Positions 8,807 through 33,939 of a stretch of DNA of 40,273 bases are shown piece by piece. The stretch covers positions 64,001 through 104,273 of IMG/VR virus record IMGVR_UViG_3300023371_001771. One strand, 5' to 3'. Each line of letters opens with the position of its first letter. Position 1 is the first letter of the stretch. The position numbers and the translations under genes were made by a program. The notes under the pieces are model-generated. The model searched no databases and had not been told where the DNA came from. It saw nothing but the letters and a program-made list of their open reading frames with translations. Source of the stretch: a virus. Lineage: Duplodnaviria; Heunggongvirae; Uroviricota; Caudoviricetes.

Positions 8807-9043
8807 GTGGAACGCACAGTTAACGACATTCTAAATGATATTATAGAACCAATTGTAGGAGACACGCCAGTGTCAGTTCAACTAGCAACTGCGCTCAACG
8901 GTATGGCCAGCAAAGAAGATGTGGACGCTTTAAGGTCAGACCTTAAAGCGCTCTGTAAAGAAGTTGAAAAATTAACTGAGCTAGTTGGTGACATTTCTGT
9001 GTCAGAACAAATAAATATGGCAATTAACAAGTCTGAAAATTGA
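8807..9043 (+). CDS. Short coiled-coil fibre-like protein, 78 aa
   Basis: GTG 8807 follows GAGGTG. Carries two VGD.xVSxQ motifs that also occur in the longer fibre genes. Confidence 0.55.
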   Translation: MERTVNDILNDIIEPIVGDTPVSVQLATALNGMASKEDVDALRSDLKALCKEVEKLTELVGDISVSEQINMAINKSEN

Positions 9044-9093
9044 TGGCTTGTTTTTTTGAATTTGAAAATTGATAATTCAAAGGAGGACTTAAC

Positions 9094-9792
9094 ATGTCCG
9101 AAAAAATTTTTAATTCGAGAATTATTCATAAACATGATATTGAGGCGCATTGGCTGCTTGCGGTAAATTTCGTTCCCAAGCAGGGCGAAATCATTGTTTA
9201 TGATATAGATTCTGCACATAATTATGAAAGAGTAAAAATTGGTGACGGCAAAACCAATGTAAACGCGTTGCCATTTTATGCTGGTAGCTGGAATGATCTA
9301 TCTGATAGACCGTTTGGAGATTATGCAGATGGAGTTCATCAGCTCGACGCAAAATACATCCCATCAACAATCGCACGCTTAACCGATATACCAAGCACCG
9401 ACACAACCTTATCAGTTGCAGGCGCTCCCGCAGATGCCAAAACTATTGGTGACACAATTAGTTCGCTAGGAACTATCGTCGGTGCCGTTAATGGCAGAGT
9501 AGACGAAGTAAACACGCTTATTGGTGATACTTCGGTTAGCGACCAAATTAGCTCTGCGCTTGATAAAGCCACCGCAGATGACTTTGGTGTATACGTTCAA
9601 GACACTGAGCCAACTGATGCGGTTGCAGGTGACATTTGGGTTGATACCGCAAACGACCCTGCTTTTATTGAACCAAATCTACCAGAAGTCACCGCATCCG
9701 ATAATGGCAAGGTGCTCATGGTAGTGAATGGAAAATGGCAGGCTGTAAATCTCAATCTATCCATCGACGCTAATGGCGTTGTGTATATGTAA
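9094..9792 (+). CDS. Fibre protein with Mtd_N-like (hyaluronidase N-terminal type) head, 232 aa
   Basis: RIIHKHD..W...FVPKQGEIIVY...VKIGDGKTNVNALPF; near-empty KPFG/KYIP cassette; C-terminal EP....GDIWVDT. Confidence 0.65.
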   Translation: MSEKIFNSRIIHKHDIEAHWLLAVNFVPKQGEIIVYDIDSAHNYERVKIGDGKTNVNALPFYAGSWNDLSDRPFGDYADGVHQLDAKYIPSTIARLTDIPSTDTTLSVAGAPADAKTIGDTISSLGTIVGAVNGRVDEVNTLIGDTSVSDQISSALDKATADDFGVYVQDTEPTDAVAGDIWVDTANDPAFIEPNLPEVTASDNGKVLMVVNGKWQAVNLNLSIDANGVVYM

Positions 9793-9806
9793 GGAGGTGG
9801 GTTGAT

Positions 9807-10157
9807 ATGCCAGTATTAAAGATTAAAAAAACTGATGGAACTTGGCAAGAAGTTTGGGGCGCAATTGCTAACACTTCTGCGGCCAGCGCACCAAAGCTCA
9901 CTAGTGTAAAGATGTTGGCTAGTGCATGGGCTGGAACGAGCCAGCCTTATTCTCAAGTTGTTGCATGCAGCGGCGTAAACGCAAACAGTAAGCTTGACTT
10001 GCAGCCCACACCTGCGCAGATTGTTGCGCTACAGGATGCGGAAATTTCATTGATGTTAACCAACAACAATGGGGTTGTGACTGCATGGTCTATTGGCAAT
10101 AAACCTACTTCTGATTATACAATGGATGTGTTAATCACGGAGGTGGTTAATGTATGA
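9807..10157 (+). CDS. Small beta-rich virion protein, paralog of 11459-11770
   Basis: Shared W.G...PY.QVV...G....S..DL.P...Q...T..IG.KP..DYT..V.ITEV pattern. Confidence 0.6.
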   Translation: MPVLKIKKTDGTWQEVWGAIANTSAASAPKLTSVKMLASAWAGTSQPYSQVVACSGVNANSKLDLQPTPAQIVALQDAEISLMLTNNNGVVTAWSIGNKPTSDYTMDVLITEVVNV

Positions 10158-10624
10158 GCATTTATGGCAATGCAGTAGGCGGCACCGCACCTATTAAGAC
10201 GCTTATCATGACCGATGAAGACGGGAATGAAATCACTGGTGTAGTTACTGGATCTGAAGTAATATTTGACGCCACGCCAGCCGACGTTAGAATTGGAAAA
10301 AAGTTTGCCAGTAACGAAGGTATTCAGGTTGGTGAACTGGTTGTTTCATCAAGCTACGGATCTATAGTATTGTCTGCTAATAGTGAAGCAGCCATTCCGG
10401 CTCCAGAGTACGAATACAGCCATTTAATGGTTACAATATGCCGTTATGATACAAATGAGGAGCAAAGTGTAGTTCCCATGTATGTATCAGTTGGTGACGC
10501 AATGTATGATGCAATCAGTGGCACAAAGTTGTCTGACATTGCTGTTGACACAGAAAATGGGCAGATTAACTTGGGCATCACAGTAAACGAAGAATATGTG
10601 CTGAGATATTGCGTTATAGGTTAA
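10154..10624 (+). CDS. Hypothetical fibre-associated protein, 156 aa
   Basis: ATGA overlap with the previous gene. Confidence 0.55.
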   Translation: MSIYGNAVGGTAPIKTLIMTDEDGNEITGVVTGSEVIFDATPADVRIGKKFASNEGIQVGELVVSSSYGSIVLSANSEAAIPAPEYEYSHLMVTICRYDTNEEQSVVPMYVSVGDAMYDAISGTKLSDIAVDTENGQINLGITVNEEYVLRYCVIG

Positions 10625-10678
10625 TAATATTAATAACATAAAACTAATGATAAAACCTCGTAAAAGGAGGGAAAGAAA

Positions 10679-11401
10679 ATGGCACAATATGTAACGAAGA
10701 TTAAAACAGATGCAGGTGACTTGCAAATTGACTATAATGCGCTGGCCAACCTACCCGATGTTGTTACTAAAGAGTACGGCAATGATACCTATGTAACAAA
10801 AGAACTTGGTGCGGCCACATATGCTCCACGTGGTATGGTTTCTCAAACAGTAAGCTATGGCGCAGACGATGATGAAGATGCTATTCTTATGGAGCTGTTT
10901 GCGGCAACACCCAACAATACACAGAGAGTAGTTTATGCAGTAAATAATGGCTCTCCATGGTTTTGGACCATCGCAAAGACATCAGAAGACTATGGTTGTG
11001 TAATTGCATATAAGTATGGATATTGGGGTACGCCATTCATAAAGTATAAAAATATTTGGGGCGGAACTGTTGGTAGCGAATGGAGTGTTACAAATCCTGA
11101 AATGGAGCCAGGTGTTGAATATAGAACTACAGAATATTGGCGCGGTTATCCAGTATACACTAAATTAGTTGACTTTGGGGCGCTGCCAAAGAGCGCCAAA
11201 AAGTCTGTTTCTTATACAGATGTTAGCGTTCGTTCTGCTATTAGATGTTCTGCCACTACTTCTGCAGGAGATACCATTCCATTAAAGAACGGGAGTCAAG
11301 AATTAGCGATTTACGCATCTAATAAAAATATTCATATCACATCCAACTATGACGCAAGTAGTATGACTAGCTATGCGCAAGTGTGGTATGTTAAAAATTA
11401 A
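10679..11401 (+). CDS. Tail-fibre-like protein, 240 aa
   Basis: C-terminal GVEYRTTEYWRGYPVYTKLVDFGALP...VWYVK resembles phage fibre tip domains. Confidence 0.55.
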   Translation: MAQYVTKIKTDAGDLQIDYNALANLPDVVTKEYGNDTYVTKELGAATYAPRGMVSQTVSYGADDDEDAILMELFAATPNNTQRVVYAVNNGSPWFWTIAKTSEDYGCVIAYKYGYWGTPFIKYKNIWGGTVGSEWSVTNPEMEPGVEYRTTEYWRGYPVYTKLVDFGALPKSAKKSVSYTDVSVRSAIRCSATTSAGDTIPLKNGSQELAIYASNKNIHITSNYDASSMTSYAQVWYVKN

Positions 11402-11409
11402 TAATACGT

Positions 11410-11442
11410 AGGAGTCAACTATCCCTTGGCTCCTTTTAATTT
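11410..11442 (+). terminator. Intrinsic terminator-like hairpin
   Basis: AGGAGTCAA-CTATCCC-TTGGCTCCT followed by TTTAATTT. Confidence 0.5.
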
Positions 11443-11458
11443 AAAAGGAGGGATATAA

Positions 11459-11770
11459 ATGGCAACAAAACGAGTTCAAATTATTGGTTCTCTGCTTAAG
11501 CCTAGTGCAAAAATATCTAATGTAGAGCTGTTGTCGGCAAACTGGATGGGTGATGCAAGCCCATATTATCAGGTAGTTGATGTCGAAGGTGCGACACCAT
11601 GTAGCCAGGTTGACTTGACTCCTAGCATTGAGCAGTTGAATATTTTCTACGAAAAAGATTTGAGTTTTGTAACCGAAAATGAAGATGGTATTGTAACTGT
11701 ATATGCAATTGGTCAAAAGCCAGAGAATGATTACACTATTCAAGTCACCATTACGGAGGTGAGCTCATGA
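11459..11770 (+). CDS. Small beta-rich virion protein, paralog of 9807-10157
   Basis: Same motif pattern as 9807-10157; SD AGGAGG. Confidence 0.6.
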   Translation: MATKRVQIIGSLLKPSAKISNVELLSANWMGDASPYYQVVDVEGATPCSQVDLTPSIEQLNIFYEKDLSFVTENEDGIVTVYAIGQKPENDYTIQVTITEVSS

Positions 11771-12414
11771 GCAAGATTATTGGCGTGACTGTTGGAACAC
11801 CATTGCCTAAGCCAAATTTTAAACAAACTGACCCCACCAAGGGTGATTATATTAAAAATAAACCCATATTATCTACAGTTGCTACTTCTGGTTCTTGGGG
11901 CGATCTCAAGGATAAGCCGTTCGGTGAAGAGGGTTGGACTATTGAGTGGGACGGCGATATAACCGACAAGGAAACTGTGACTTTGGACGGGCTGGAGCTT
12001 GTGCGCGTTTCTGACAACACGATTGCGCTTTCCGATGTACTGGGTAGCGTGGTGAGTTATGAGATTTCATACGATGGTGTTGAAACAAGAACATTCTGTG
12101 TCACCGAGGATTGTGTTGCTGACGGCGAAGGATTGATGTTTGCAATTACACACACAGGCTCTGATACTGGTGTTCCGATTGTTATAATTTGCAATCAAGA
12201 CTTGGGAGAGTATGGCATATCAATGCGTGAGGGCGTATATTTCGCAAACAAATTTGTGCATGCGCGTTCTATTTCCAGTACAACCATCAAGACCATCGAC
12301 GAAACCTACATCCCAGACACAATTGCTCGCGCATCAGATGTTGAAGCGAACACTTCTGAGATAAATGCATTCACTCCTATCACTTATGCTGAAATTGAAG
12401 CGCTTTTCGATTAA
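11767..12414 (+). CDS. Cassette-type fibre protein, 215 aa
   Basis: SWGDLKDKPFG-[122 aa]-TIDETYIPDTIAR; ends ITYAEIEALFD. Confidence 0.6.
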   Translation: MSKIIGVTVGTPLPKPNFKQTDPTKGDYIKNKPILSTVATSGSWGDLKDKPFGEEGWTIEWDGDITDKETVTLDGLELVRVSDNTIALSDVLGSVVSYEISYDGVETRTFCVTEDCVADGEGLMFAITHTGSDTGVPIVIICNQDLGEYGISMREGVYFANKFVHARSISSTTIKTIDETYIPDTIARASDVEANTSEINAFTPITYAEIEALFD

Positions 12415-12526
12415 TTAAATAATCAACAAATGCATGTAGGCCATTAATTTAGCCTATTTTTTATAGACATATATTATATTTATTTTTATATTATTTAAAA
12501 TTTAAATAGCAAAGGAGAAATTTATT

Positions 12527-14458
12527 ATGGCTGAAATTAAAAAGTATTTATCTCTTGATAGACTGGCACAGTACGATGCTCTAATCAAAGCAAAGATTGA
12601 TAATGATATTTCTGGCGTAAATGCTTCTATTTCTGATATTACATCTGGTTCTACAGTAGTAAAGAAGGCTGAAGAAGCTACTTCTGCAACAAAGGCAACT
12701 CAGGATGCTTCTGGCAATGTAATTACTGATACATATGAAACCAAAACTGATGCTCAAGCAAAATTAGATGAAGCAAAAGGCTATACTGATACTGCCGAAG
12801 CTAATGCCAAGGCGTATGCAGACGGCAAGGACGCTGCTATTCAGGCCGCTCAAAAGGCTGGCGATGATGCTGCTGCTGCCGCTGGTGTTGCCGATGGTAA
12901 AGCTGTTAAGGCTCAGGGTGATGTTGACACTTTGAAGGGCTACGTCGGCACTATTCCTGCTGATGCAACTGCAACAAACGTTGTCGCTTATGTTCAGGAG
13001 AAGACTGCTGGCATCGCATCTGAAAGTGCAATGATTGAGTTGGGCAATCGTGTTGGTGTTGTTGAGGGCAAAGTTGCTACTATTGAAGGCGATTATTTAA
13101 AGGCTGCTGACAAAACCGAACTTCAGAATGCTATCGACGCTAAGGTTGCTCAGACCGATTATGACACTAAGATGGGTCAAATTGACGAGAAAACTGAGAG
13201 CTTGCAGACTCAGATTAATACTATTATGAACAACCCTGATGCTGAGGGTGCTATTAACTCTATTAATGAGTTTACTAAGTATGTTGAAGATCATGGCACT
13301 ATCGCTGACGGTTTCCGCGCTGATATTGACAAGAACAAGGATGATATTGCTGCTGAAGTGAAGAGAGCTGGCGAAGCTGAGACTGCTTTGTCTGGTCGTT
13401 TAGACACCTTGGAAGCTATCAATCATGATGCATATATTGCCGCCGACGAAGCTATGAAGAATGAGCTTGATGGCGATATTGCCGATCTTGCTGCTGCTAT
13501 TGAAGCTGCTAAGACAGATGCTGCCAATAAGGATGCCGTTGTTCTTGCTGAAGCCCAGAAAGCCACTCAAAAGGCTGCTGTTGCTGCTCAAATTAAATTT
13601 AACGAATTGAATGAAAAAATTGTGCAGAGCGACTGGTCTGTAAATGACGAGAGTGATTCTGCTTATATTAAAGGCAGAACCCATTGGGTTGAAGAAGGGT
13701 CTTATGAAGTCAGTGGAACTTTTGATGGTGATATTAGTTCTAAGACGTACATGAAGGAGCTTGGTGGTGCAAATAAGGGCTATGTTCGATTAACAAGTGA
13801 TACTATAACAAATTTTGATAATTTTATAGATGGTGAAATTATTCTTTATGATGAAAAAAATGATACCGATTATCGTTATAGTGTAGATATTGTTAAAATA
13901 AATAATGATATAAGTGCCACGGATAGAGTCGTTGCTGGCACTGTTTATGGTTTCGCTTCTAGTGATGGAGATATAATTATCGCAACAGAAGGCAGCGCTG
14001 GACTTGTAACAGTTTATGCTGGTGGTAGACAAGGGATGCGTGTCCCGCTAACAGGCCCTGGCATTTGGGTATGGTACGACAATAGCGGCACCAATTTAGT
14101 TAAGATGGAATATATTTCTAGTTATAGTTTCAGATTTGCAGATGAAGTGGCTCATCCATTAGATGAAAAATTTATCCCAGATTCTATTGCGCGTGAGTCT
14201 GATATTGAAGCTCTTGAGAGTGCCGACAATGCTCTATCTGGACGTTTGGATGCTCTGGAAGCTATTGATCATAGCCATAGTAATAAGACTATTCTGGATA
14301 GTATTACTGCCGAAAATATTACCACTTGGAACACTGTTACTTCTAAGGCTGCACAAGCAGATTTAACTGCTGTTGGCGACAGAGTTACTGCAATTGAGAC
14401 TTGGCGTGATAATTTCGTTGAAATTTCTGAGGAAGAAATTAACGGCATGTTCGCCTAA
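12527..14458 (+). CDS. Ala-rich coiled-coil fibre with inserted globular cassette, 643 aa
   Basis: Heptad-like Ala/Asp/Glu/Lys-rich stalk; QSDW..ND..AYIK-[156 aa]-PLDEKFIPDSIAR; begins KKYLSLDRL and ends EISEEEINGMFA. Confidence 0.65.
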   Translation: MAEIKKYLSLDRLAQYDALIKAKIDNDISGVNASISDITSGSTVVKKAEEATSATKATQDASGNVITDTYETKTDAQAKLDEAKGYTDTAEANAKAYADGKDAAIQAAQKAGDDAAAAAGVADGKAVKAQGDVDTLKGYVGTIPADATATNVVAYVQEKTAGIASESAMIELGNRVGVVEGKVATIEGDYLKAADKTELQNAIDAKVAQTDYDTKMGQIDEKTESLQTQINTIMNNPDAEGAINSINEFTKYVEDHGTIADGFRADIDKNKDDIAAEVKRAGEAETALSGRLDTLEAINHDAYIAADEAMKNELDGDIADLAAAIEAAKTDAANKDAVVLAEAQKATQKAAVAAQIKFNELNEKIVQSDWSVNDESDSAYIKGRTHWVEEGSYEVSGTFDGDISSKTYMKELGGANKGYVRLTSDTITNFDNFIDGEIILYDEKNDTDYRYSVDIVKINNDISATDRVVAGTVYGFASSDGDIIIATEGSAGLVTVYAGGRQGMRVPLTGPGIWVWYDNSGTNLVKMEYISSYSFRFADEVAHPLDEKFIPDSIARESDIEALESADNALSGRLDALEAIDHSHSNKTILDSITAENITTWNTVTSKAAQADLTAVGDRVTAIETWRDNFVEISEEEINGMFA

Positions 14459-14486
14459 TTTAAAGTCGTTTGATTAATAATATGTA

Positions 14487-14517
14487 GAAAGACCCTTTAA
14501 TTAGGGTCTTTCGTTTT
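14487..14517 (+). terminator. Intrinsic terminator
   Basis: GAAAGACCCT-TTAATT-AGGGTCTTTC followed by GTTTT. Confidence 0.75.
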
Positions 14518-14537
14518 AAATTAGAAGGAGAAATTTT

Positions 14538-15908
14538 ATGGCAAAGATTGATATTACCTTTAATAATAAAAATTACTCTATTCACGAATCCTCTCTTTCT
14601 GACGTTTCTGACGCTTTAAAGTCTCACTTATCCACTACCATGAGTGGTTCTGGTGCAATGATTAATCTTGGTGGAGATTCTTATAGTGTTGATTCTGAAA
14701 AGTTATCTGCTGCTACTAATGCTTTTGTTTCACATTTAGGCACTATTACTGGTAGTAGTTCTAAGGTTGTCGTTGGTGAAAATGAGTATGGCATTGATTA
14801 TAATAAGGTCAATGAGGCGATTTTGGAATTGGAAACTGTTTTAAGCAATTTACATAATTCTGACAGTCCTGATATTCCGATTGCTAAAAATGTTGTGTTA
14901 GAAGTTAATAAAATAACAGATACTACCTATGTAGATGATACTGCTTATAACGACGAAGAATTTATTTTGCTTAATATCTATCCAAAAACGAATGGTATGA
15001 TTTTTATCACCTATGGTGATTTGACCAAAGTCATTATAGATACAAGTGGGGCAGCAGAGCCAGCTAAACAGCAAGTTTTCTTTGGTACTTTTAATGGCGT
15101 ATCTGACTCTGTAACAACACCTTCTAGTGGCATATTGACGATTGAGGGCGATTATAGAGATTTTGGTGTAGGATCATATGATACTAAGCATAATTTTAAT
15201 TTTTATAATGGCATAACTGCTGTTCATGATTTTGGAAATGTTACTAGTCTTGATCGTACATTCTGGGGCTGTACAAATCTTACAAGCATAACTATTCCTA
15301 ATAGCATTACCAGTATTGGTTATAGCGCATTCCAAAATACAGGTCTTACAAGTGTTATTATCCCCGATAGCGTTATTAGTCTTGGTGATAATGCGTTTAG
15401 AGATTGTGTAAATCTTACAAGCGTTACTATTCCCAATAGTGTTACTGATTTAGGTAATAATACGTTCTGGGGCTGCACAAGCCTTACGAATATCACTATT
15501 CCCAATAGCGTTACTAGTATTAAACATTATGTATTCCATGAATGTACGGGTCTTACAAATGTAATTATTCCTGATAGTGTCGTTCACATTGGTCAGGAAG
15601 CGTTCTATGGCTGTACAAGCCTTATGAATATTACTATTCCCAATAGTGTTACTGACATTTCTGGTAGCGCATTCCAAAATACAGGTCTTACAAGTATTAC
15701 CATTCCTGATAGTGTCGTTCACATTGGCATGGAAACATTCTCTAATTGTACAAATCTTACAAGTGTTAGTTTTGACAATACAGATGGTTGGTTCGTTTCA
15801 AAACATAGTACTGCCACGAGTGGCACACCTATAGATGTAACAGATCCTGTTGCGAATGTGACACTGTTAACTGACACTTATAGCAATTATTATTGGAAAC
15901 GAGCTTAG
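14538..15908 (+). CDS. BspA-type (LRR_5) leucine-rich repeat protein, 456 aa
   Basis: About 8 repeats of (V/I)T(S/D)IG..AF..CT.LT(S/N)ITIP(N/D)S. Confidence 0.85.
   Translation: MAKIDITFNNKNYSIHESSLSDVSDALKSHLSTTMSGSGAMINLGGDSYSVDSEKLSAATNAFVSHLGTITGSSSKVVVGENEYGIDYNKVNEAILELETVLSNLHNSDSPDIPIAKNVVLEVNKITDTTYVDDTAYNDEEFILLNIYPKTNGMIFITYGDLTKVIIDTSGAAEPAKQQVFFGTFNGVSDSVTTPSSGILTIEGDYRDFGVGSYDTKHNFNFYNGITAVHDFGNVTSLDRTFWGCTNLTSITIPNSITSIGYSAFQNTGLTSVIIPDSVISLGDNAFRDCVNLTSVTIPNSVTDLGNNTFWGCTSLTNITIPNSVTSIKHYVFHECTGLTNVIIPDSVVHIGQEAFYGCTSLMNITIPNSVTDISGSAFQNTGLTSITIPDSVVHIGMETFSNCTNLTSVSFDNTDGWFVSKHSTATSGTPIDVTDPVANVTLLTDTYSNYYWKRA
15323..15727 (+). repeat. Exact intragenic repeats in the BspA gene
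   Basis: 31-nt TAGCGCATTCCAAAATACAGGTCTTACAAGT at 15323 and 15665; 26-nt ATTCCTGATAGTGTCGTTCACATTGG at 15567 and 15702. Confidence 0.9.
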
Positions 15909-16094
15909 AACTAAATAAAAATTACTAAATACAAGAGGGGATTTTGCTATCCCCTCTAAATGAGCATTCTATTAGAAATATTTCTAAAGAAAATCTTAAT
16001 CACATATTTAATTAGTACTCATGTATAATGCGCAAATACATGGCTATTAGTTAACTAAGCTGACAAATTATAAATTTTGAAAGGAGATTTCAAA

Positions 16095-16796
16095 ATGCCT
16101 GATTCAATTAAAAAATATTTGTCTCTTGATAGATTGAAAAAATATGACGAGTTGATCAAGACAAAGATTGACAGTGATATTGCCAATCATAAGCATAGCT
16201 GGAATGAGTTGAACGATAAGCCGTTCGGCGAGGAAAGTATTGAGCGCATCGAAATTGATATGATGGGACAGACTATAGGATTCTTGAAAGTTTCGGACAA
16301 TACTGAGCTCGCTGTATCTCCTGCGGCTGATGGTATGGCAAAAGTTTGGCGTACTATATCAGAAGTTTCTGACTTTAATAACGCACCGTGGGTGTTGGTA
16401 GATGATAAAGTCGCTGCAATTTCTGAACTGATGGTACTTGTATTTTTTGAAGATGTTGAGAATTACGAAGTGGAAGAAATCGTCTTTAATGCAACAAAAG
16501 GCGTATACTTCATGGACACTAGGGCACTGGGCTATGAAGCCTTTTTATCTGGATTTGCAAGCGATTCTAAAGCTACTGAACCTGAAATCACTTGGGATGG
16601 TAATGATTCATATATTAAGCAGCTTGATGAAAAGTATATTCCAGATACCATCGCTCGCGTAGAAGACATTCCAGAGATCGAAGTCGCTACAGACGAAGAA
16701 GTAATTACAATGCTAATGGAACTAGATATGCTCCCAACATTCGTTGATAGCGAAGGAGCTCTATTAATTGATAACAATGGTTCAATTCCAATTTAA
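16095..16796 (+). CDS. Cassette-type fibre protein, 233 aa
   Basis: ATG 16095 follows AGGAG. KKYLSLDRL N-terminus as in 12527; SWNELNDKPFG-[130 aa]-QLDEKYIPDTIAR. Confidence 0.6.
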   Translation: MPDSIKKYLSLDRLKKYDELIKTKIDSDIANHKHSWNELNDKPFGEESIERIEIDMMGQTIGFLKVSDNTELAVSPAADGMAKVWRTISEVSDFNNAPWVLVDDKVAAISELMVLVFFEDVENYEVEEIVFNATKGVYFMDTRALGYEAFLSGFASDSKATEPEITWDGNDSYIKQLDEKYIPDTIARVEDIPEIEVATDEEVITMLMELDMLPTFVDSEGALLIDNNGSIPI

Positions 16797-16808
16797 GGAG
16801 GAACTTAT

Positions 16809-17993: not shown

Positions 17994-18000
17994 TACATAT

Positions 18001-18031
18001 AAAGGCGGTAGTTTAATTCTACCGCCTTTTT
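18001..18031 (+). terminator. Intrinsic terminator
   Basis: AAAGGCGGTAG-TTTAATT-CTACCGCCTTT followed by TT. Confidence 0.75.
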
Positions 18032-18055
18032 AACTAAATAACATGAGGTGATTAA

Positions 18056-19882: not shown

Positions 19883-19896
19883 GGTGGTGAAAAGAT

Positions 19897-21036: not shown

Positions 21037-21072
21037 ATAATCAAAAAAAATATAAAAAGGAAGGTATTATAT

Positions 21073-24285: not shown

Positions 24286-24296
24286 GGTGAATAATT

Positions 24297-25481: not shown

Positions 25482-25493
25482 GGAGGTTGTTTT

Positions 25494-27911: not shown

Positions 27912-27913
27912 GA

Positions 27914-28996
27914 ATGAATTATAATTCTATAGATGAAATTTTATCTGCTGGTATTACAAACATGGAAGTAATTAGGGACAATACCAAACAAGATGATGGC
28001 ACAGATACCATTACTGGCGTATCATGGTTTACTTTTAATGGAACTGTTGCGTCCACTATTTACGTAAGTGGCAACTCTTGGATTGGGTTTGGCTCAAGTT
28101 CAGAACATTTAAAAGTAAATAGAAGAAATGGAGCAATGTGGTCATTTTATAGAGAAGAAGGAACATTATATGATTATTATAAATTTCTAAAGATAAGATG
28201 GAAAGGATACAGCCGAAATAGTCAAACTTCATTTTCGTATGCTATAGAATATGACGTAATTCTTTGGGATACTGGCGATATATCTCTCCATATGATTTCC
28301 ATTCCTACTTCATATAATACTGGAACATATTCGTTAGTTGCCTCTTCTACTTATACTTATAATGTTTCTACTACATCTCCATATGTTACATTTACAAAAA
28401 CGGACGCGGGATTTGATGTAAAAAATGAAATTATTAACTTAGAGTTTCCATACGAAAAAATATATTTAATTCGTTCTGGTTCTACTTACTATACTGTTGT
28501 GAATGACGTTCTTAGTGAAGTTATTGGTGCAGATATTTCTTCTACAACATTTTTAAATTATGGTATTAAAATGATTCCAGAATTATCTTTGTTAGCTGGT
28601 TTGTCCAATCCTGAAATACTTTATTGGACTGACAGTGAAAAGTGTCTTATAAACAATTTAAGAATTCAAGGTTCACCTTCTCCTCAATTAATACACTACA
28701 ATCCACAAACTATACCAGAAGGTTCAGGAATCAAAGGAATTGAAGCAAAACGTGCACATGATGATGTTTTATTCACCATCACTTTCAATGGTGGCACAAC
28801 ATGGCATTATTATGATACTGTAACCATGACATGGATTACGGCAGAGTCAAATTTAGTTGGTATGAGTCCATCTGTTCTAAAAGCTTTGATACCAAGTATA
28901 TGGGCAGAAATTACAACGTCTTCTACGTTTCAAATTCGTTGCTTGTTGCCATCAACAGAAAGTTATGTTGATAAAATATATGTTGGATATGTTTAA
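27914..28996 (+). CDS. Hypothetical beta-rich virion protein, 360 aa
   Basis: Starts 2 nt after the previous stop; aromatic, Ser/Thr-rich beta protein. Confidence 0.55.
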   Translation: MNYNSIDEILSAGITNMEVIRDNTKQDDGTDTITGVSWFTFNGTVASTIYVSGNSWIGFGSSSEHLKVNRRNGAMWSFYREEGTLYDYYKFLKIRWKGYSRNSQTSFSYAIEYDVILWDTGDISLHMISIPTSYNTGTYSLVASSTYTYNVSTTSPYVTFTKTDAGFDVKNEIINLEFPYEKIYLIRSGSTYYTVVNDVLSEVIGADISSTTFLNYGIKMIPELSLLAGLSNPEILYWTDSEKCLINNLRIQGSPSPQLIHYNPQTIPEGSGIKGIEAKRAHDDVLFTITFNGGTTWHYYDTVTMTWITAESNLVGMSPSVLKALIPSIWAEITTSSTFQIRCLLPSTESYVDKIYVGYV

Positions 28997-29094
28997 ATAA
29001 AAAGAATACAAAATAAAAAATGCTTGCGTGAGGATATACACTTGCGTAAGCATTTTGGATAAACCAAAACTTCTTAATAGGAGGTTGATTAATA

Positions 29095-29463
29095 ATGGCG
29101 ACTTATATTGAGATTAACGAAGTAAGATATCCTGCCAGTATTACTGGCAGACTAGTTGATAGAGACTGGGATGACAGAGAATCCAAGGCTATCAAGTTAG
29201 AGATGTCTTACGCTGATGCTATTGCGCTTTTCGTTGATGATATTTCTTGGAGTATTGTTCAGGACATTGAAGAAGTTACTGTAGAATATGACGAAGAGGC
29301 AGGCGAAATGGTGTCTAAAACTACAACTAAGTATGAATATTTTGATAACAGCGAATATAGCATTGCTGGCGATGTTGTAGATCACAGAGATGGTACTGTT
29401 ACTGTAAAAATGGGCAAGTCTACTGCGGCAGAATTGCTTGCTATGCTTGAGGAGGTGCTGTAA
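29095..29463 (+). CDS. Hypothetical acidic phage protein, 122 aa
   Basis: SD AGGAGG; tightly linked to the CBM gene. Confidence 0.6.
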   Translation: MATYIEINEVRYPASITGRLVDRDWDDRESKAIKLEMSYADAIALFVDDISWSIVQDIEEVTVEYDEEAGEMVSKTTTKYEYFDNSEYSIAGDVVDHRDGTVTVKMGKSTAAELLAMLEEVL

Positions 29464-29465
29464 TT

Positions 29466-29867
29466 ATGCTGACAAAATCTAAAGCAAAAGCAATTGTAGA
29501 TGCTCTTGTTAAACTTCGTAATTTGGCTACAGATGAACAAGCGATAGAAGTTCCTGCGCTGTATCCAGTTTGGTCAGAAGAAATTATGTATGAAGTTGGC
29601 GAGAGAGTTGTATATAATGATGTTTTATACAAGGTGCTGCAATCACACACTTCTCAAGCAGATTGGACTCCAGATGTAGCAGTTAGCCTATTTGCTAAAG
29701 TTCTTATTGTGGATGAAAATGTTGTTTCTGAATGGGAGCAGCCTGAAAGTACTAATCCTTATATGACTGGCGATAAAGTTTCTTATAATGGTAAGACTTA
29801 TGTTTCTACTGTTGATAATAACGTATGGTCGCCCGACACATATGGTTGGCAGGAAGTAACTGAATAA
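29466..29867 (+). CDS. Protein with two CBM5/12-type carbohydrate-binding modules, 133 aa
   Basis: W....Y.VGERVVYNDVLYKVLQSHTSQADWTP and Y..GDKVSYNGKTY.S..DNNVWSP...W. Confidence 0.75.
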   Translation: MLTKSKAKAIVDALVKLRNLATDEQAIEVPALYPVWSEEIMYEVGERVVYNDVLYKVLQSHTSQADWTPDVAVSLFAKVLIVDENVVSEWEQPESTNPYMTGDKVSYNGKTYVSTVDNNVWSPDTYGWQEVTE

Positions 29868-29901
29868 AACTTAATACTCACATCGATAGGAGGTGAGAAA
29901 A

Positions 29902-30600
29902 GTGTCGCAAAATATATTCAAAATTTATGACGGACGCACAAATTTCTGGCAATGGGATACTAAACAAAAGTTAATTGTTTTAGATGAACGTGTTACAGAA
30001 GTGCGTTTTTCAAATAGAAACATGGAGCACTCTAAGCGCAGACCTGTTTATACTGACAAAGATGGTGTGCGCATTTGTAATGTACCTGATATTCTACTAC
30101 AGCTTCCCAAGAATTTGATCGCATATGCGATTGTTAAAGGCGAAGATGGATGCTGCAGTACACTCAAGGCGGTCAAGTTTGCCGTTTATCAGCAGCCAAT
30201 TCCTACCGATTATATTTGTGAACAAGATGCGGTTGTTGATGATATTCTTATGAGGCTTGAAATTCTTGAAAGTCTGCTTAAGGATGTTTCAACTGGCGCA
30301 CAGCAGCTTACTAAGTTTACTAGCATGGTTGATGCGGCCAAGTGGGCTATTGAAGATGGACAGCCTGGAGATATTGTTGTTATAAAGCTGGATATCGGCT
30401 GGGTGCCACATGTTGTTGAAGAGGACAAGAGTCTCACTCCAATTTGCAATTGTGATGGTGAGATGGTTACTATTAAGCTTGATGGTGATGATGCCGATGG
30501 AATCCCAAGCGGAGAAATTGAAGTATTCTACGATGGAAACTACGTAGAAGACGAAAATTTAATTCAATATTTTGATGGTGGAAGCGCTGCTGGCATTTAA
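29902..30600 (+). CDS. Fibre-anchoring (BppU N-terminal-like) protein, 232 aa
   Basis: GTG 29902 follows GGAGGT; FWQWD.KQKL...VRF.N...ICNVPDILLQ; ends FDGGSAAGI. Confidence 0.45.
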   Translation: MSQNIFKIYDGRTNFWQWDTKQKLIVLDERVTEVRFSNRNMEHSKRRPVYTDKDGVRICNVPDILLQLPKNLIAYAIVKGEDGCCSTLKAVKFAVYQQPIPTDYICEQDAVVDDILMRLEILESLLKDVSTGAQQLTKFTSMVDAAKWAIEDGQPGDIVVIKLDIGWVPHVVEEDKSLTPICNCDGEMVTIKLDGDDADGIPSGEIEVFYDGNYVEDENLIQYFDGGSAAGI

Positions 30601-30650
30601 TATGTCAGTAGCTTTTTCATATATAAAATCTTAAGAAAGGATGATGTTAA

Positions 30651-32051
30651 ATGGCAACGAAAGTTATTAAGACGGTCTTTCAATTTAGAAGAGCAACGAC
30701 CGCCGAATGGCTTGCCAACAAGGACGTTATTCCTGCCCCAGGTGAACCTTGTTACGATTTAACTGCGCATACACTAAGAATTGGTGATGGCGTTCTCACA
30801 TATGAGAATCTACCAGTTATTGGTGGCGTAGACGTAAAGGTAGAAGCCGACGGCAAATCTATTGTCCTAGAAGACGATGTTTTTAAACTTGCGGGTTTTG
30901 ATGCTGCCGCAACTGGCGCTCAGCCCCGCAAAAATGACAAAGGCGAATTAGAATGGGTTGTTCCTTCTACTGAAGCGTTTGACGATCTAAAGTCTGAAGT
31001 GGAAACTCTACAGGAGACAGTTACCACTATTAAGGAGATTGTCACACCTTCTGCTGATGGTGCTGCTCCACTGCTTTCTAGACTTGAAACTCTAGAGCAC
31101 AAAATGGACAAAACTGGCGATGGTACAGTTGACGCCAAGATTGATGCAAAGATTAAGGAATTTGCCTCTGACCTAACTGAGAATGATAAGGTTGACACTT
31201 TACTTGAGCTTATCAATTATGTTGACACTCACGGCAAAGACGTTGCTGGTATGGTTGCTGACATTGCAGCCCTTCAGGATCTAGTTGGCGATACATCTGT
31301 TGAAGAGCAGATTGAAGCGGCTGGTCATGTATCTAAGGATGAAGCTGCTGTAACTCTACAGCGCATAAAGTACGAGATTTCTCATAAACCAGTTGGCACT
31401 CTAGTTGATTACAACGACAAGGAAATCAGAGTTATGGTTCCTGCTAATACCCAGTGGGTAAAGCAGTCTGTTGGTAGCACTGGCAATGCTAACATGTATT
31501 ATATGGGCTTTAAAGCCTATGCTCCCGAAGGCGCTGTAAGCTTCAAAGAAGGCGATAAGGGTGTTGTCGAAGACAAGATGTTCACATTTGACGATGACTT
31601 TGCTGGCATTGACGAATATGGCAGAAAGTATAGTATTGTTTGGCTTGCGCTTGCGTCCTATGATGAGGCGAAAGATGAGTGGACTTACTTCGGCAAGAAC
31701 TCTTCTGCGAAGAAGTATGTTGGTTGGACTTACGTTGTTGAATGGTATGATGCTGATGGTGCGATCATTGAATCTGACTGTATCCGCATTAACCTGAGCA
31801 ATGAATCTTGTCATAACATTGTTGAACCCTATTATGCTACAAACCTGATTAAGGGCGTTAGCGTTGGTGGATCCCTACTAGATATTGTTGATGGTGTTGT
31901 TAGTATTCCCGCTTTTGCTGGTCTCAAGAGCTCTGATGAAATTGTTGTCAATGAAGATGGTACGCTAAGTGTTGGTGTTATCAGCTTTGACAAGATTGCT
32001 CAGGGTGAAGGTGAAGTCATCATTATGGATGGCGGCAATGCAGTGGGTTAA
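30651..32051 (+). CDS. Fibre protein with Mtd_N-like head, 466 aa
   Basis: FQFRRATTAEW...IPAPGEPCYD....LRIGDGVLTYENLP; ends IIMDGGNAVG. Confidence 0.7.
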   Translation: MATKVIKTVFQFRRATTAEWLANKDVIPAPGEPCYDLTAHTLRIGDGVLTYENLPVIGGVDVKVEADGKSIVLEDDVFKLAGFDAAATGAQPRKNDKGELEWVVPSTEAFDDLKSEVETLQETVTTIKEIVTPSADGAAPLLSRLETLEHKMDKTGDGTVDAKIDAKIKEFASDLTENDKVDTLLELINYVDTHGKDVAGMVADIAALQDLVGDTSVEEQIEAAGHVSKDEAAVTLQRIKYEISHKPVGTLVDYNDKEIRVMVPANTQWVKQSVGSTGNANMYYMGFKAYAPEGAVSFKEGDKGVVEDKMFTFDDDFAGIDEYGRKYSIVWLALASYDEAKDEWTYFGKNSSAKKYVGWTYVVEWYDADGAIIESDCIRINLSNESCHNIVEPYYATNLIKGVSVGGSLLDIVDGVVSIPAFAGLKSSDEIVVNEDGTLSVGVISFDKIAQGEGEVIIMDGGNAVG

Positions 32052-32088
32052 TATTAAAAAATTATTTATTTAAAGGAGAGAATTGATT

Positions 32089-33939
32089 ATGGCTATTGAA
32101 AATGCAAAGACTCTAAATGTAAGAATTAAGAATAAGTATGACTCCTATGAAAACTGGGCTGAATCTGGTCTCATTCTAGAAGCTGGCGAAATTGCTATTG
32201 CGTATACTACTGTTAATGTTGAAGTTGGTAACGGTAAGATTGAACAGCATCCCGAACTACTAATGAAGGTCGGTGATGGCTCCAAAACTTTTGCGAACCT
32301 TCCTTGGCTAAGCGCGAAGGCTGCTGACGTAGCTGCTTGGGCCAAGGCCGCAACCAAGCCCACTTATGCTGCCAGCGAAATCACTGGTATTGATGCCAAG
32401 ATCGCTGACTATGTTACCAATGAGATGGGCATTCAGGTTGACACTGATACCCAGTACAAGATGGTTAAGGTAAATGATTATCAGTACAAGCTAATGGCTA
32501 AGTCCAAGGCTGATGCTGACTACACTGTTGAAGTTGGCACCATCGAGATCCCCAATGACACCGCAGCTATTTCTGCTCTTGAAGCTCTAGTTGGTACCGA
32601 TTCTGTTGCAACTCAGATTGCAGACGCTCTAAAGGTGTATTCTACCACCGAGCAGATGAACGCTGCAATCGCTACCGCTAAGGGCGAAGCAGTGTCTCAT
32701 GCTGATGGTCTAAACACCGCCATGAATACCCGTGTTGCTGCTCTAGAGGCCATTGATCACACTCACACCTTCGTTGAGTCTGAGCTAAACCTCATCAAGG
32801 AAGGCGACGTTGAAAAGTGGAACGCTGCTGAGCAGAATGCCAAGACCTATGCCAAGGACTATGCTGACGGTCTAAATACTGCTATGGACGAGCGTGTTGC
32901 TGAACTAGAGGGTATGTTCGGTGATGGCGAAGGCACTGTTGAAGCTCAGATCGAAGCTGCTGTTGCTGCCGAGGCTGCACTACGTGAGGCTGCTGACAAT
33001 GGTCTTTCCGGCAGAATCAAGGCTATCGAGGATGACCATCTAGTTGGCGCTGACAAGACTGCCCTACAGGAGCAGATCACCGCTAACGCTGATGCTATTG
33101 AAGATCTAGAAGAGCTAGTTGGCACTACCGCTGTTGCTACCCAGATCGAAGAGGCCGTTGCCGCTGAAGCTGAAATCGCTCGTGCTGCCGAGAAGGCCAA
33201 TGCTGATGCTATTGGTGTTCTAAATGGTGATGCCGAAACCGCAGGCTCTGTTGACTACAAGATCGCTCAGAAGTTCGCTACTCTAATGGAGAATCCTGAC
33301 GAAGCAATGAACTCCATTCAGGAGCTAGTTGACTGGACCACTGAGCATGCTGGTTCCGCTCTAGAGATGAGCAATCAGGTTACTGCCAATAAGAACGCTA
33401 TTGCTACCCTAAACGGTGGTGCTGATGTTGCTGGCTCTGTGGACAAGAAGATTGCTGATGCCATTGCCGCTGAAAATCTATCTCAGTATGCTACTGACAC
33501 TGAGCTTTCTGGTGTCGATTCCAGACTACAGGCCGTTGAGACCGCTATTGGCGAGACTGGCTCTGTTGCTACCGCTATTGAAGGCGCTGTGACCGAAGCT
33601 AAGGGTTACACTGATGCTGAAGTTAAGAAGCTTGCTGAGGGCGCTGTTGCTGACAATGCTGCTGCCATTGGCGAGCTAGAGGAGCTAGTTGGTACCACTG
33701 CAGTTTCCACTCAGATCGAAAATGCTATTGCCGCTCTAAAGATCGGCGATTATGCTAAGGCCGCTGACCTAACTGCTGCTATCGAACAGCACGCTAAGGA
33801 TAAGAAGACTCTTGAGGATGCTATCGCTCTAAAGGCAAATGACGCTGATCTAGCTGCTATCGCTAAGACTGGCTCTACTGACGATCTAGTTCAGGGTACT
33901 CAAGTCCTCGTGTTCGACTGCGGTACCTCTGCTGTCTAA
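32089..33939 (+). CDS. Long Ala-rich coiled-coil fibre with Mtd_N-like head, 616 aa
   Basis: RIKNKYD...W...LILEAGEIAI...MKVGDG.KTFANLPW; repeated LExLVGTxxVxTQI; ends VLVFDCGTSAV. Confidence 0.7.
   Translation: MAIENAKTLNVRIKNKYDSYENWAESGLILEAGEIAIAYTTVNVEVGNGKIEQHPELLMKVGDGSKTFANLPWLSAKAADVAAWAKAATKPTYAASEITGIDAKIADYVTNEMGIQVDTDTQYKMVKVNDYQYKLMAKSKADADYTVEVGTIEIPNDTAAISALEALVGTDSVATQIADALKVYSTTEQMNAAIATAKGEAVSHADGLNTAMNTRVAALEAIDHTHTFVESELNLIKEGDVEKWNAAEQNAKTYAKDYADGLNTAMDERVAELEGMFGDGEGTVEAQIEAAVAAEAALREAADNGLSGRIKAIEDDHLVGADKTALQEQITANADAIEDLEELVGTTAVATQIEEAVAAEAEIARAAEKANADAIGVLNGDAETAGSVDYKIAQKFATLMENPDEAMNSIQELVDWTTEHAGSALEMSNQVTANKNAIATLNGGADVAGSVDKKIADAIAAENLSQYATDTELSGVDSRLQAVETAIGETGSVATAIEGAVTEAKGYTDAEVKKLAEGAVADNAAAIGELEELVGTTAVSTQIENAIAALKIGDYAKAADLTAAIEQHAKDKKTLEDAIALKANDADLAAIAKTGSTDDLVQGTQVLVFDCGTSAV

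What the first reader, a model, noticed from the sequence alone, without database searches (positions are those of the whole stretch)
8807..33939. Candidate new system: a ~25-kb mix-and-match virion appendage kit whose genes end and begin in matched 'docking' motifs
Seen: about 25 co-oriented fibre/adhesin-like genes lie between the tail tube and the holins, and gene termini recur in pairs. (a) C-terminal DGG/DCG is followed by an Mtd_N head in the next gene. (b) C-terminal ITxxEIxxLF/M is followed by N-terminal KKYLSLDRL. (c) A BspA N-cap at a C-terminus is followed by an LRR body. (d) A GDIW/GEIYW motif at or near the C-terminus is followed by a short beta-hairpin N-terminus (9094 to 9807, 24297 to 25494). 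Inference: these are cognate docking elements that chain separately encoded segments into long or branched appendages, much as PKS docking domains order modules. A kinase and a glycosyltransferase inside the array may tailor the appendages.
Basis: partly seen in the sequence, partly recalled or inferred. Interest (0 to 1): 0.82.

Follow-up and report, generated by a model that had tools for sequence, protein, structure and literature searches.

The report
Phage fibres built from plug-together segments
A gut phage encodes its long surface fibres as about two dozen separate pieces whose ends carry matched connector motifs, and comparison with relatives suggests these connectors replace a peptide bond and let the pieces be chained and swapped.

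Summary
The motifs are real and non-random, and the docking reading is supported for some pairs but not for the array as a whole.

- **Array:** 23 co-oriented ORFs lie in 8798-33939 of a 104-kb uncultured Firmicutes-type siphovirus contig.
- **Pair (a), DGG/DCG tail then Mtd_N-type head:** It recurs in six IMG/VR phages, and six of nine independent MAG contigs show it. It is also the arrangement in Bordetella phage BPP-1 itself, where Bbp9 ends ..ADLGGIA just before mtd.
- **Pair (b), ..EIxxLF tail then KKYL helix head:** It recurs in six relatives, on different upstream bodies.
- **Statistics:** Gene-order shuffles gave 11 observed against 2.5 expected for (a) and 7 against 0.6 for (b). None of 20000 shuffles reached either value.
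- **Fused homologues:** Single-chain relatives join the same bodies directly and lack both tail and head, for (a), (b) and 9094/9807.
- **Complex model for (b):** It scored 0.80 against a best control of 0.29. Its interface is the stretch that the fused form lacks.
- **Pair (c):** This is a conserved true gene split.
- **Second (d) pair and enzyme "tailoring":** Both remain weak.
- **Adjacency is not obligatory:** The DCG tail here precedes a holin.
- **Extra pair found:** An Ig-like mini-protein precedes a hyper-conserved MSKIIGVTVGT head.

First readers of this scan flagged similar "docking codes" in at least six other genomes. All evidence is computational. I rate it a new variant of known branched or segmented fibre systems.

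The parts
8798..9043 (+). 81-aa coiled-coil protein with the recurrent ..LVGD.SVSEQI.. motif; first gene of the array
   Evidence: A homologue at the same place in L048 (3444-3656) follows the zinc-ribbon and 92-aa genes.
9094..9792 (+). Fibre segment with a KHD-type Mtd_N-like head (aa 10-54) and an extra C-terminal hairpin (..GKVLMVVNGKWQAV..)
   Evidence: Pfam Mtd_N E 1.3e-3, 19 bits, below cut-off. The head aligns with relatives. In L025 and L026 it is fused to the 9807-type domain.
9807..10157 (+). Ig-like end domain (..ITEVVNV) that is split off from 9094; it has its own AAGGAGGTG ribosome site
   Evidence: 36% identical to 11459. The same domain ends single-chain fibres P0002, P0013 and P0025.
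10154..10624 (+). 156-aa protein with an MSIYGNAVGG head; it overlaps the stop of 9807 by 4 nt
   Evidence: The same order (Ig-like end, then an MS.I.G..VG head) is seen in L025, L041 and G005.
10679..11401 (+). 240-aa protein of no known family
   Evidence: no hits. Its head resembles that of L025 2633.
11459..11770 (+). Stand-alone 103-aa Ig-like mini-protein (..TIQVTITEVSS)
   Evidence: Near-identical 103-105-aa genes precede MSKIIG-headed genes in L047, L048 and L050, always with a 4-nt overlap.
11767..12414 (+). Segment with the hyper-conserved head MSKIIGVTVGT..KNKP, one KPFGE..YIPDTIAR cassette and an LF tail (aa 194-215, about 12346-12411)
   Evidence: The head occurs on more than 50 unrelated bodies. 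Its codons show 11-17 synonymous against 1-3 non-synonymous changes. The tail forms the predicted interface.
12527..14458 (+). 643-aa coiled-coil fibre with a K-helix head (aa 1-28, 12527-12610) and an ..EINGMFA tail
   Evidence: The fused homologue P0034 starts matching at aa 29.
14538..15908 (+). BspA-type LRR protein with head MAKIDITFNNKNYSIHESS; flanked by hairpins at 14487-14512 and 15934-15957
   Evidence: LRR_5 E 3.6e-58. The same position after an ..LFA tail is seen in L001 and G002. Hairpins.
16077..16796 (+). Second K-helix-headed segment (probable start at 16095), with an ..ATDEEVITMLMELDML.. end module
   Evidence: A 76-nt repeat with 12535-12610 at 78% identity. The same end module terminates single-chain fibres P0018 and P0019.
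16809..17993 (+). 394-aa segment containing one KPFGE-type cassette
   Evidence: No family hit.
18056..19882 (+). 608-aa segment with Big_3 and a C-terminal BspA cap (last 41 aa, about 19757-19879)
   Evidence: Big_3 E 2e-4. The cap is 61% identical to the 76-aa cap-only protein of G001.
19897..21036 (+). Cys-rich 23-aa-repeat LRR body that starts MINFRQYSNVTKIVIP
   Evidence: The G001 homologue starts MINFRNYPNITNVIIP after its own stop codon and ribosome site.
21073..22119 (+). Family-2 glycosyltransferase
   Evidence: PF00535 E 8e-17. The same LRR-then-GT2 order is seen in G001 and L040.
22147..24285 (+). CotH + Big_2 + LamG protein with a fibre-type head (SYKIYASENYV)
   Evidence: CotH E 1.6e-27. 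P0027 carries the same module behind the 29893-type anchor.
24297..25481 (+). 394-aa segment ending ..NGEIYWTYG
   Evidence: The same end module sits on a KHD-headed protein in L038.
25494..27911 (+). 805-aa Cys-rich LRR protein with its own hairpin-repeat N-terminus
   Evidence: Residues 391-744 are 56% identical to 19897.
27914..29867 (+). Three ORFs (360, 122 and 133 aa), the last with CBM5/12
29893..30600 (+). Anchor protein: beta-sandwich (aa 4-105), helix, alpha/beta part, then a DGG tail (aa 188-235, about 30454-30597)
   Evidence: 32 longer homologues have the anchor fused straight to fibre bodies without the tail. Fold.
30651..32051 (+). Fibre segment with an Mtd_N head (aa 11-48) and an ..IIMDGGNAVG tail
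   Evidence: PF18454 35 bits, above the 26.3 cut-off. Syntenic in L025, L026 and L041.
32083..33939 (+). Coiled-coil fibre segment with a KYDSYENW-type Mtd_N-like head and a ..VFDCGTSAV tail
   Evidence: In L025, L026, L027, L033 and L041 this tail is followed by a 9094-type head.

Best explanation
The region encodes virion fibres (most likely tail or baseplate appendages) that are segmented. What related phages make as one long polypeptide is here cut into several genes. That single chain runs from a beta-sandwich anchor, through a coiled coil and swappable cassettes, to an Ig-like, LRR or enzymatic end. At each cut, the upstream protein carries a short C-terminal connector and the downstream protein carries a matching N-terminal connector. 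Together they rebuild the joint without a covalent bond.

At least four connector types appear to be used:
1. A Gly-rich D-G/C-G tail that seats into the Mtd_N-type beta-prism head of the next segment. This is the BPP-1 Bbp9/Mtd arrangement.
2. An amphipathic ..I(T/S)xxEIxxLF helix. Three copies of it pack onto the trimeric N-terminal KKYL..IK coiled coil of the next segment.
3. A BspA cap strand that completes the first repeat of a separately encoded LRR solenoid.
4. A small Ig-like protein paired with the hyper-conserved MSKIIGVTVGT head.

Segments with the same head can compete for, or replace each other on, the same tail. This gives chained or branched appendages and easy exchange.

Shown: the motifs, their conserved order, the fused homologues, protein-level selection on one head, and one supportive complex model. 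Inferred: actual binding, stoichiometry, and presence and position in the virion.
For: Adjacency in relatives with different bodies:
- LF tails are followed by K-helix heads in about 11 of 14 junctions of seven arrays. The upstream bodies are 157, 215 or 387 aa and unrelated.
- DGG/DCG tails are followed by Mtd_N-type heads in L025, L026, L027, L029, L030 and L033. This includes 6 of 6 tailed proteins that have no Mtd_N head themselves, so tandem paralogy does not explain the pattern.
- In an independent sample, 6 of 9 MAG contigs show the same order.
- Shuffles gave 11 against 2.5 and 7 against 0.6, with 0 of 20000 reaching either value. Cross pairs numbered 0.

Fused homologues:
- 32 longer proteins carry the 29893 anchor joined directly to fibre bodies, with neither a DGG tail nor Mtd_N in between.
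- P0034 joins 11767-like residues up to 199 directly to 12527-like residues from 29 on (E 2e-42). It lacks the last 16 residues of one and the first 28 of the other.
- L025 and L026 fuse the 9094 and 9807 types.

Complex model: three tails plus three heads scored ipSAE 0.80 against a best control of 0.29. That mark was reached by 58 of 80 solved complexes and 2 of 110 mismatched pairs. Partner pLDDT was at least 95 and the runs agreed at 95% or more. The interface is tail aa 194-214 with head aa 1-23, the same stretch the fused form lacks.

Archetype: in BPP-1, Bbp9 ends ..ADLGGIA 15 nt before mtd. PMC10743442 states that Mtd sits at the distal end of the tail fibres and presumably attaches through its N-terminal beta-prism.

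Split (c) keeps a stop codon, a ribosome site and an ATG in two phages, in different relative frames.

The MSKIIG head is 90-97% identical in protein and 80-83% in DNA, with 11-17 synonymous against 1-3 non-synonymous codon changes.
Against: - There are no proteomic, structural or binding data. No relative is a cultured phage.
- Only one pair was co-folded, with shallow hand-made alignments (13-14 rows) and an assumed 3:3 stoichiometry. The controls were unrelated proteins, not non-cognate tails from the same array.
- Relatives share ancestry, so conserved order is partly synteny. The shuffle test ignores this.
- Exceptions exist. The 32083 tail precedes a holin. The 9094 head follows a gene without a tail. 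Three of 9 MAG cases lack the tail. Three of 14 LF tails precede an LRR head instead.
- Eleven of 15 DGG-tailed proteins also carry an Mtd_N head, so part of the adjacency is what tandem copies would give.
- P0034 comes from a 2.8-kb contig.
- The DGG tail folds with pLDDT under 50 on its own, which neither supports nor opposes docking.
- The tape measure and baseplate genes of this phage are not on the contig, so where the fibres attach is unknown.
Confidence: 0.62

Rival explanations
1. The heads and tails are independent modules. Every N-terminal head binds a common hub on the baseplate or tail. Every C-terminal motif is a folding, trimerisation or end-cap element of its own fibre. The tail-to-head order is inherited gene order plus tandem duplication of head-body-tail genes, and neighbours make no direct contact.
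For: - Eleven of 15 DGG-tailed proteins also carry Mtd_N heads, and 6 of 14 LF-tailed proteins carry K heads.
- All compared loci are relatives.
- In the window one cognate-type pair is 23 kb apart and the array still exists.
- The MSKIIG head on more than 50 bodies looks like a universal anchor peptide.
Against: - Tails on proteins without the matching head are still followed by that head, in 6 of 6 cases.
- Fused homologues lose the tail and the next protein's head together, while keeping both bodies contiguous. This is not expected if the two had unrelated roles.
- The complex model places the tail on the head.
- In BPP-1, Mtd is reported at the fibre tip, not on a hub.
Confidence: 0.2
2. 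The conserved junctions act mainly at the DNA level. The end of one gene plus the start of the next form a homology arm that lets co-infecting phages swap the bodies between them by recombination.
For: - Bodies between constant termini differ widely among relatives.
- Homing-endonuclease-like genes sit exactly in such junctions in L026, L027, L047 and L050. Such genes typically sit next to sequence conserved among competing phages.
Against: - Conservation is in the protein, not the DNA. The MSKIIG head shows 80-83% nucleotide identity with 11-17 synonymous changes in 31 codons.
- The two K heads in the window share only 78% identity over 76 nt.
- The intergenic spacers are not conserved and vary from -4 to 168 nt.
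- This reading would not explain the fused forms or the complex model. It can coexist with docking as a secondary effect.
Confidence: 0.1
3. The splits are damage or artefact. On this reading they are frameshifts, nonsense mutations or assembly errors in what should be a few long fibre genes, or sites of programmed recoding.
For: - Fused homologues exist.
- The gaps at 9792/9807 and 19882/19897 are only 14 nt, and the partners lie in different frames.
Against: - Each downstream gene has its own Shine-Dalgarno site and ATG.
- The same split (c) occurs in G001 with a TAG stop and the genes in the same frame, and in the window in different frames. This rules out a shared frameshift signal.
- Split forms carry extra terminal modules that fused forms lack.
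- The same splits recur in many independent assemblies.
Confidence: 0.03

Closest known systems
Bordetella phage BPP-1 tail fibre Bbp9 plus Mtd (major tropism determinant)
   Same: A separately encoded trimeric tip protein with an N-terminal Mtd_N beta-prism lies directly downstream of a fibre gene. That fibre's C-terminus is Asp-x-Gly-Gly (..ADLGGIA). Mtd is reported at the distal fibre end, presumably attached through the prism (PMC10743442).
   Different: BPP-1 has one such joint and a C-type-lectin tip diversified by a retroelement. No lectin or DGR target was seen in the array.
Branched receptor-binding-protein systems of Klebsiella podophages KP32/K11/KP34, and Ackermannviridae tailspike complexes
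   Same: A primary protein is anchored to the virion. Further proteins attach to it through a short conserved N-terminal docking peptide, and bodies are exchangeable (PMC13352976; PMC11414711 and PMC10253068). The MSKIIGVTVGT head on more than 50 bodies behaves like such a conserved peptide.
   Different: Those systems use a T4 gp10-like branching domain or XD domains inside the primary protein, not C-terminal tails. No such domain was detected here by Pfam or PHROGs. The hosts are Gram-negative. Those systems are experimentally shown, and this one is not.
T4 long tail fibre (gp34-gp35-gp36-gp37), from established knowledge
   Same: Consecutive genes encode consecutive segments of one long fibre, joined end to end without covalent bonds.
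   Different: There is no sequence relation. T4 has one fixed chain of four proteins. Here there are several connector classes, fused and split versions coexist among relatives, and gene order can be rearranged.
Docking domains of modular polyketide synthases
   Same: Short C-terminal helices of one subunit pack onto an N-terminal coiled coil of the next and set the order. The model for pair (b) has this character.
   Different: This is purely an analogy of principle. The oligomer state differs (trimer against dimer), there is no homology, and the role is structural rather than enzymatic.
TP901-1 BppU / BppL baseplate
   Same: An N-terminal beta-sandwich anchor, a helix, then a C-terminal part that holds separately encoded trimers. 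The 29893 model gave weak Foldseek hits to TP901-1 (4v96) and 80alpha (6v8i) baseplate chains.
   Different: The hits are weak (E about 2e-3, TM 0.23-0.31) and typical of any Ig-like sandwich. There is no sequence match.

Membership tests
Mtd_N-headed fibre proteins (Pfam PF18454) | Profile match above the curated cut-off (26.3 bits) | tested here: met
   30651: 35.0 bits, E 1.4e-8. 9094 (19 bits) and 32083 (17.4 bits) fall below the cut-off. They align with the family's invariant W and G-E columns and a mostly kept IGDG motif, so they are called Mtd_N-like only.
Mtd_N-headed fibre proteins (Pfam PF18454) | The domain sits at the extreme N-terminus of the protein | tested here: met
   This holds for all 23 heads in the loci and for the one long homologue, P0033.
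Mtd_N-headed fibre proteins (Pfam PF18454) | Trimer attached by the prism to the end of another fibre protein | not testable with these tools
   Only gene order and fused homologues bear on it.
Branched RBP systems (anchor / branching domain / conserved peptide) | Conserved N-terminal docking peptide shared by proteins with unrelated bodies | tested here: met
   The MSKIIGVTVGT..KNKP head is 87-100% identical over about 30 residues on proteins carrying pectate-lyase, CotH, YadA-stalk, collar, LRR, NAGPA and phosphatase domains. It is under protein-level selection.
Branched RBP systems (anchor / branching domain / conserved peptide) | T4 gp10-like branching domain or XD domains in the primary RBP | tested here: not met
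   No such family appeared among the Pfam or PHROG hits of any array protein. Remote homology was not examined by fold.
Segmented end-to-end fibre (T4 LTF type) | Consecutive genes correspond to consecutive parts of one fibre | tested here: met
   Single-chain homologues P0002-P0027 run from anchor through coiled coil and cassettes to an Ig-like end, in the order of genes 4455 to 8750 of L025. P0034 bridges 11767 and 12527.
Segmented end-to-end fibre (T4 LTF type) | Physical non-covalent joint between segment termini | tested here: inconclusive
   One pair was modelled: ipSAE 0.80 against a best control of 0.29. The mark was reached by 58 of 80 solved complexes and 2 of 110 mismatched pairs. 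This is a prediction only.
BspA-type LRR (PF13306) | Profile match above the cut-off (27.7 bits) | tested here: met
   14538: 195 bits. 19897 scores 25.5 bits, just under the cut-off. It and 25494 are a Cys-rich 23-aa-repeat variant.
CotH kinase family (PF08757) | Profile match above the cut-off; kinase activity | tested here: met
   22147: 97.3 bits against a 23.8 cut-off. Catalytic residues and activity were not examined.
BppU-like baseplate anchor | Fold match of the N-terminal domain to BppU | tested here: inconclusive
   The model has pLDDT about 90 for aa 4-105. Foldseek hits to 4v96 and 6v8i chains have E about 2e-3 and TM 0.23-0.31, among many generic Ig-like folds.

The most novel reading that the evidence does not exclude
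Large gut-associated siphoviruses may use a small set of orthogonal, portable connector pairs: DGG tail with Mtd_N prism, LF helix with K-helix coiled coil, cap strand with LRR, and Ig mini-protein with MSKIIG peptide. These would form a combinatorial assembly code. Any body flanked by the right head and tail is incorporated at a defined place. One virion could then carry long, branched and heterogeneous appendages displaying adhesins and enzymes (LRR, CotH, pectate lyase and others). Fibres could also switch over evolutionary time between single-chain and multi-gene forms.
Probability: 0.4. Interest if true: 0.82.

Novelty: new variant of a known kind. Interest (0 to 1): 0.68.

Why it matters
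Most uncultured gut phages carry long runs of unannotated fibre-like genes that cannot yet be read. If the connector pairs hold, gene order plus terminal motifs would predict which proteins sit on which. That would turn an opaque 25-kb block into an assembly diagram. It would also explain how enzymes such as CotH or pectate lyases come to be displayed on virions. It extends the anchor and docking-peptide principle, so far shown experimentally only in Gram-negative phages, to a different phage group with different structural solutions. Finally, it gives a concrete role to the common Mtd_N domain beyond BPP-1. The fused and split homologue pairs make the idea directly testable with small protein fragments.

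Tried and rejected
- **Nucleotide and protein searches of cultured phages:** The array gave nothing useful. Only the capsid protein placed the phage near Bacillus, Lactococcus and Clostridioides large siphoviruses, at about 28% identity.
- **PDB sequence searches:** 12527, 30651 and 9094 gave only chance hits.
- **Fused connectors:** I found no single protein with an internal DGG tail followed by Mtd_N, or an LF tail followed by KKYL. This covers the loci and longer database proteins. Mtd_N heads were always N-terminal.
- **Broad Mtd_N head alignment:** It was too diverse for a genome scan, so I used a narrower head family instead.
- **Relatives of 24297:** They shared only the widespread ..PAWAKEPNKPTYAASE.. 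motif, so the second (d) pair could not be tested.
- **Frameshift or read-through at 19882/19897:** Rejected.
- **Split-intein or isopeptide joining:** Considered and dropped. The heads and tails lack the invariant catalytic residues, and the Asp position varies (D/N/G/E).
- **Literature:** Searches found no description of these motif pairs. One search was swamped by 'mtDNA' matches.
- **Family search in five relative records:** Searching with PF18454 found nothing, and the controls were silent too, so the result is uninformative.

Full report
**Setting.** The window is the last 40 kb of a 104-kb linear virus contig.
- The capsid protein (897-2009) is about 28% identical to those of large Bacillus, Lactococcus and Clostridioides siphoviruses.
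- No cultured phage matches the array itself.
- From 8798 to 33939 there are 23 ORFs, all on the + strand. Two holin-like genes follow.
- Recognised domains are Mtd_N (30651 above cut-off; 9094 and 32083 below), BspA LRR, Big_2/Big_3, CotH, LamG, GT2 and CBM5/12. Most other ORFs have no family.
- The tape measure and baseplate genes are not on the contig, so the site of attachment is unknown.

**The observation.** The quoted motifs are all present, but the pairing inside the window is looser than stated.
- Pair (a) holds for two of three DGG/DCG tails. The third, on 32083, precedes a holin.
- Pair (b) is directly adjacent once. The second tail and second head are separated by the LRR gene 14538-15908.
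- Pair (c) is exact.
- Pair (d) lumps two different things together.

The window alone would therefore not be convincing. The weight comes from relatives.

**Relatives.** Scans of IMG/VR with 12527, 30651 and 32083 and with head alignments gave about fifteen distinct contigs. I extended five of them to 40-60 kb.
- In seven arrays, an ..I(T/S)xx(E/D)IxxLF tail is followed by a K..YL..L..Y...IK helix head in about 11 of 14 junctions.
- The tail sits on unrelated upstream bodies: a 157-aa Mtd_N-like protein, a 387-aa protein, and the 215-aa 11767.
- The other three LF tails precede the MxKxxIxFNxKNYSIxES head of a BspA LRR protein. This same order occurs in the window, L001 and G002.
- In L025, L026, L027, L029, L030 and L033, tails of the form hydrophobic-(D/N/G)-(G/C)-G are followed by Mtd_N-type heads almost without exception.
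- Six tailed proteins have no Mtd_N head of their own, and all six are followed by one.
- In four of these phages, and in L041 from the MAG sample below, the 32083-type DCG tail is followed by a 9094-type head. So in the window that pair has been separated by 23 kb.
- An independent sample from bacterial MAG contigs, picked by head alone, showed a D(C/G)G tail upstream in six of nine cases.
- Shuffling gene order within loci gave 11 against 2.5 and 7 against 0.6, with none of 20000 shuffles reaching either value. There were no cross-class neighbours.
- This test does not correct for shared ancestry.

**Fused homologues.** This is the strongest line of evidence.
- The first ~187 residues of 29893 recur at the start of 32 longer proteins of 440-1567 aa. 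There the chain runs straight on into the coiled coil. The 48-residue DGG tail and any Mtd_N domain are absent.
- Many of these single chains end in the Ig-like ..ITEV.. domain that 9807 and 11459 encode separately. Two end like 16077. One (P0027) carries the CotH-LamG module of 22147.
- P0034 matches 11767 up to residue 199 and then 12527 from residue 29 (43% identity, E 2e-42). It omits the last 16 residues of the first protein and the first 28 of the second.
- L025 and L026 have 9094-type and 9807-type parts in one protein. The window's split versions carry extra hairpins at the new ends and a strong ribosome site.
- In each case the tail and the following head are present together or absent together, and they sit where the fused form has a peptide bond.

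**Complex model.**
- I co-folded three copies of the 11767 tail segment with three copies of the 12527 head. The score was ipSAE 0.80 (three runs: 0.82, 0.80, 0.80) against a best control of 0.29.
- In the tool's calibration that mark was reached by 58 of 80 solved complexes and 2 of 110 mismatched pairs.
- Partner pLDDT was at least 95, and the runs shared at least 95% of their contacts.
- The interface is tail residues 194-214 with head residues 1-23, the same segments that P0034 lacks.
- The control that kept the head and replaced the tail scored 0.08, so the score does not come from the head trimer alone.
- Limits: the alignments were shallow and hand-made, the stoichiometry was assumed, and no non-cognate tail was tried.

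**The archetype.** In BPP-1, the putative fibre protein Bbp9 ends ..ANIGLADLGGIA 15 nt before mtd. PMC10743442 states that Mtd sits at the distal end of the tail fibres and presumably attaches by its N-terminal beta-prism. Pair (a) is thus the BPP-1 arrangement, used serially.

**Pair (c).**
- The window and G001 both keep a stop codon, a Shine-Dalgarno site and an ATG between a cap (..PST.LIIP..S..L) and MINFR.Y.N.T..IP. The genes lie once in the same frame and once in different frames.
- The cap sits on a 608-aa protein in the window and on a 76-aa protein in G001. The two caps are 61% identical.
- This excludes error or frameshifting. Binding was not tested.

**A further pair.**
- The 103-aa 11459 overlaps by 4 nt the start of 11767. 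The first ~33 residues of 11767 recur at 87-100% identity on more than 50 proteins with unrelated bodies.
- In three other contigs, the same mini-protein precedes such a gene with the same 4-nt overlap.
- The head shows 11-17 synonymous against 1-3 non-synonymous codon changes in 31 codons. This argues for selection on the peptide rather than on a DNA recombination arm.

**The anchor.** The 29893 model is confident for a beta-sandwich (aa 4-105) and poor for the tail. Foldseek gave weak hits to TP901-1 and 80alpha baseplate chains among generic Ig-like folds. This is suggestive only.

**What remains weak.**
- The second (d) pair has one analogue (G005) and no usable homologues.
- The GT2 gene keeps its place after the Cys-rich LRR gene in G001 and L040, but nothing shows that it modifies the fibres.
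- CotH looks like displayed cargo rather than a tailoring enzyme.

**Comparison with what is known.**
- Experimentally shown systems with a virion anchor and a docking peptide exist in Klebsiella podophages and Ackermannviridae. T4 chains four fibre proteins.
- I found no description of these particular connectors.
- First readers of this scan noted similar head-to-tail codes in at least six other genomes. I did not test those loci.
- I therefore class this as a new variant of a known kind, resting on computational evidence only.

Noticed in passing
window 14487-14512, 15934-15957, 18001-18029, 11410-11434: GC-rich stem-loops sit in the longer intergenic spacers of the array. Two of them bracket the LRR gene 14538-15908, as if it were a self-contained cassette inserted between an LF tail and a K-helix head.
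   Followed up: partly
L026 4114-5094; L027 5619-5993; L047 2470-3615; L050 462-1817: Free-standing homing-endonuclease-like genes lie exactly in tail/head junctions of related arrays. They separate partners that are adjacent elsewhere.
   Followed up: no
window 19897-22119; G001 (L016) 30119-32610; L040 2-2147: The order Cys-rich 23-aa-repeat LRR gene then GT2 glycosyltransferase is conserved in three phages. Every LRR repeat contains N-L-T or N-V-T sequons. A link between the two genes is possible but untested.
   Followed up: no
window 9286-18220 and P0004, P0013, P0018, P0039: Fibre bodies are built from repeated cassettes bounded by W..L.DKPF(G/Y)E and (D)EKYIPDTIAR. Single-chain relatives string up to about ten such cassettes. 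Another first-reader note covers the same feature.
   Followed up: partly
window 8153-9043; L048 2728-3656; G005 600-1309: A zinc-ribbon-like 112-aa protein, a ~90-aa protein and a small coiled-coil protein form a conserved trio. They lie between the tail-tube-like gene and the first fibre gene in three phages. Their function is unknown.
   Followed up: no
window 24297-25481 end; L038 3001-4389 end; L035 4336-5784 end; window 14538-15908 end: C-terminal motifs of the type ..NG(E/D)I(Y/C)W.Y., ..YYWKRA or ..G.IFFKK.. end many fibre proteins and are followed by varied heads. They look like generic end caps rather than specific connectors.
   Followed up: partly
G001-G004 arrays (L015-L021, L024): Another recurrent tail, ..(V/I)(V/I)EF at the very C-terminus, is followed by several different heads (MAD..IKNGQLIF, MSLSFE.SLK, MNNNLQTLID). 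It may be a further connector class or a hub-binding strand.
   Followed up: no
window 34799-40272: Fibre-like genes continue beyond the holins. A 952-aa protein matches long phage proteins (phrog_14959) and resembles the CotH protein 22147. It is followed by a DUF2726 gene and an open-ended ORF. Another first-reader note proposes an intron here.
   Followed up: no
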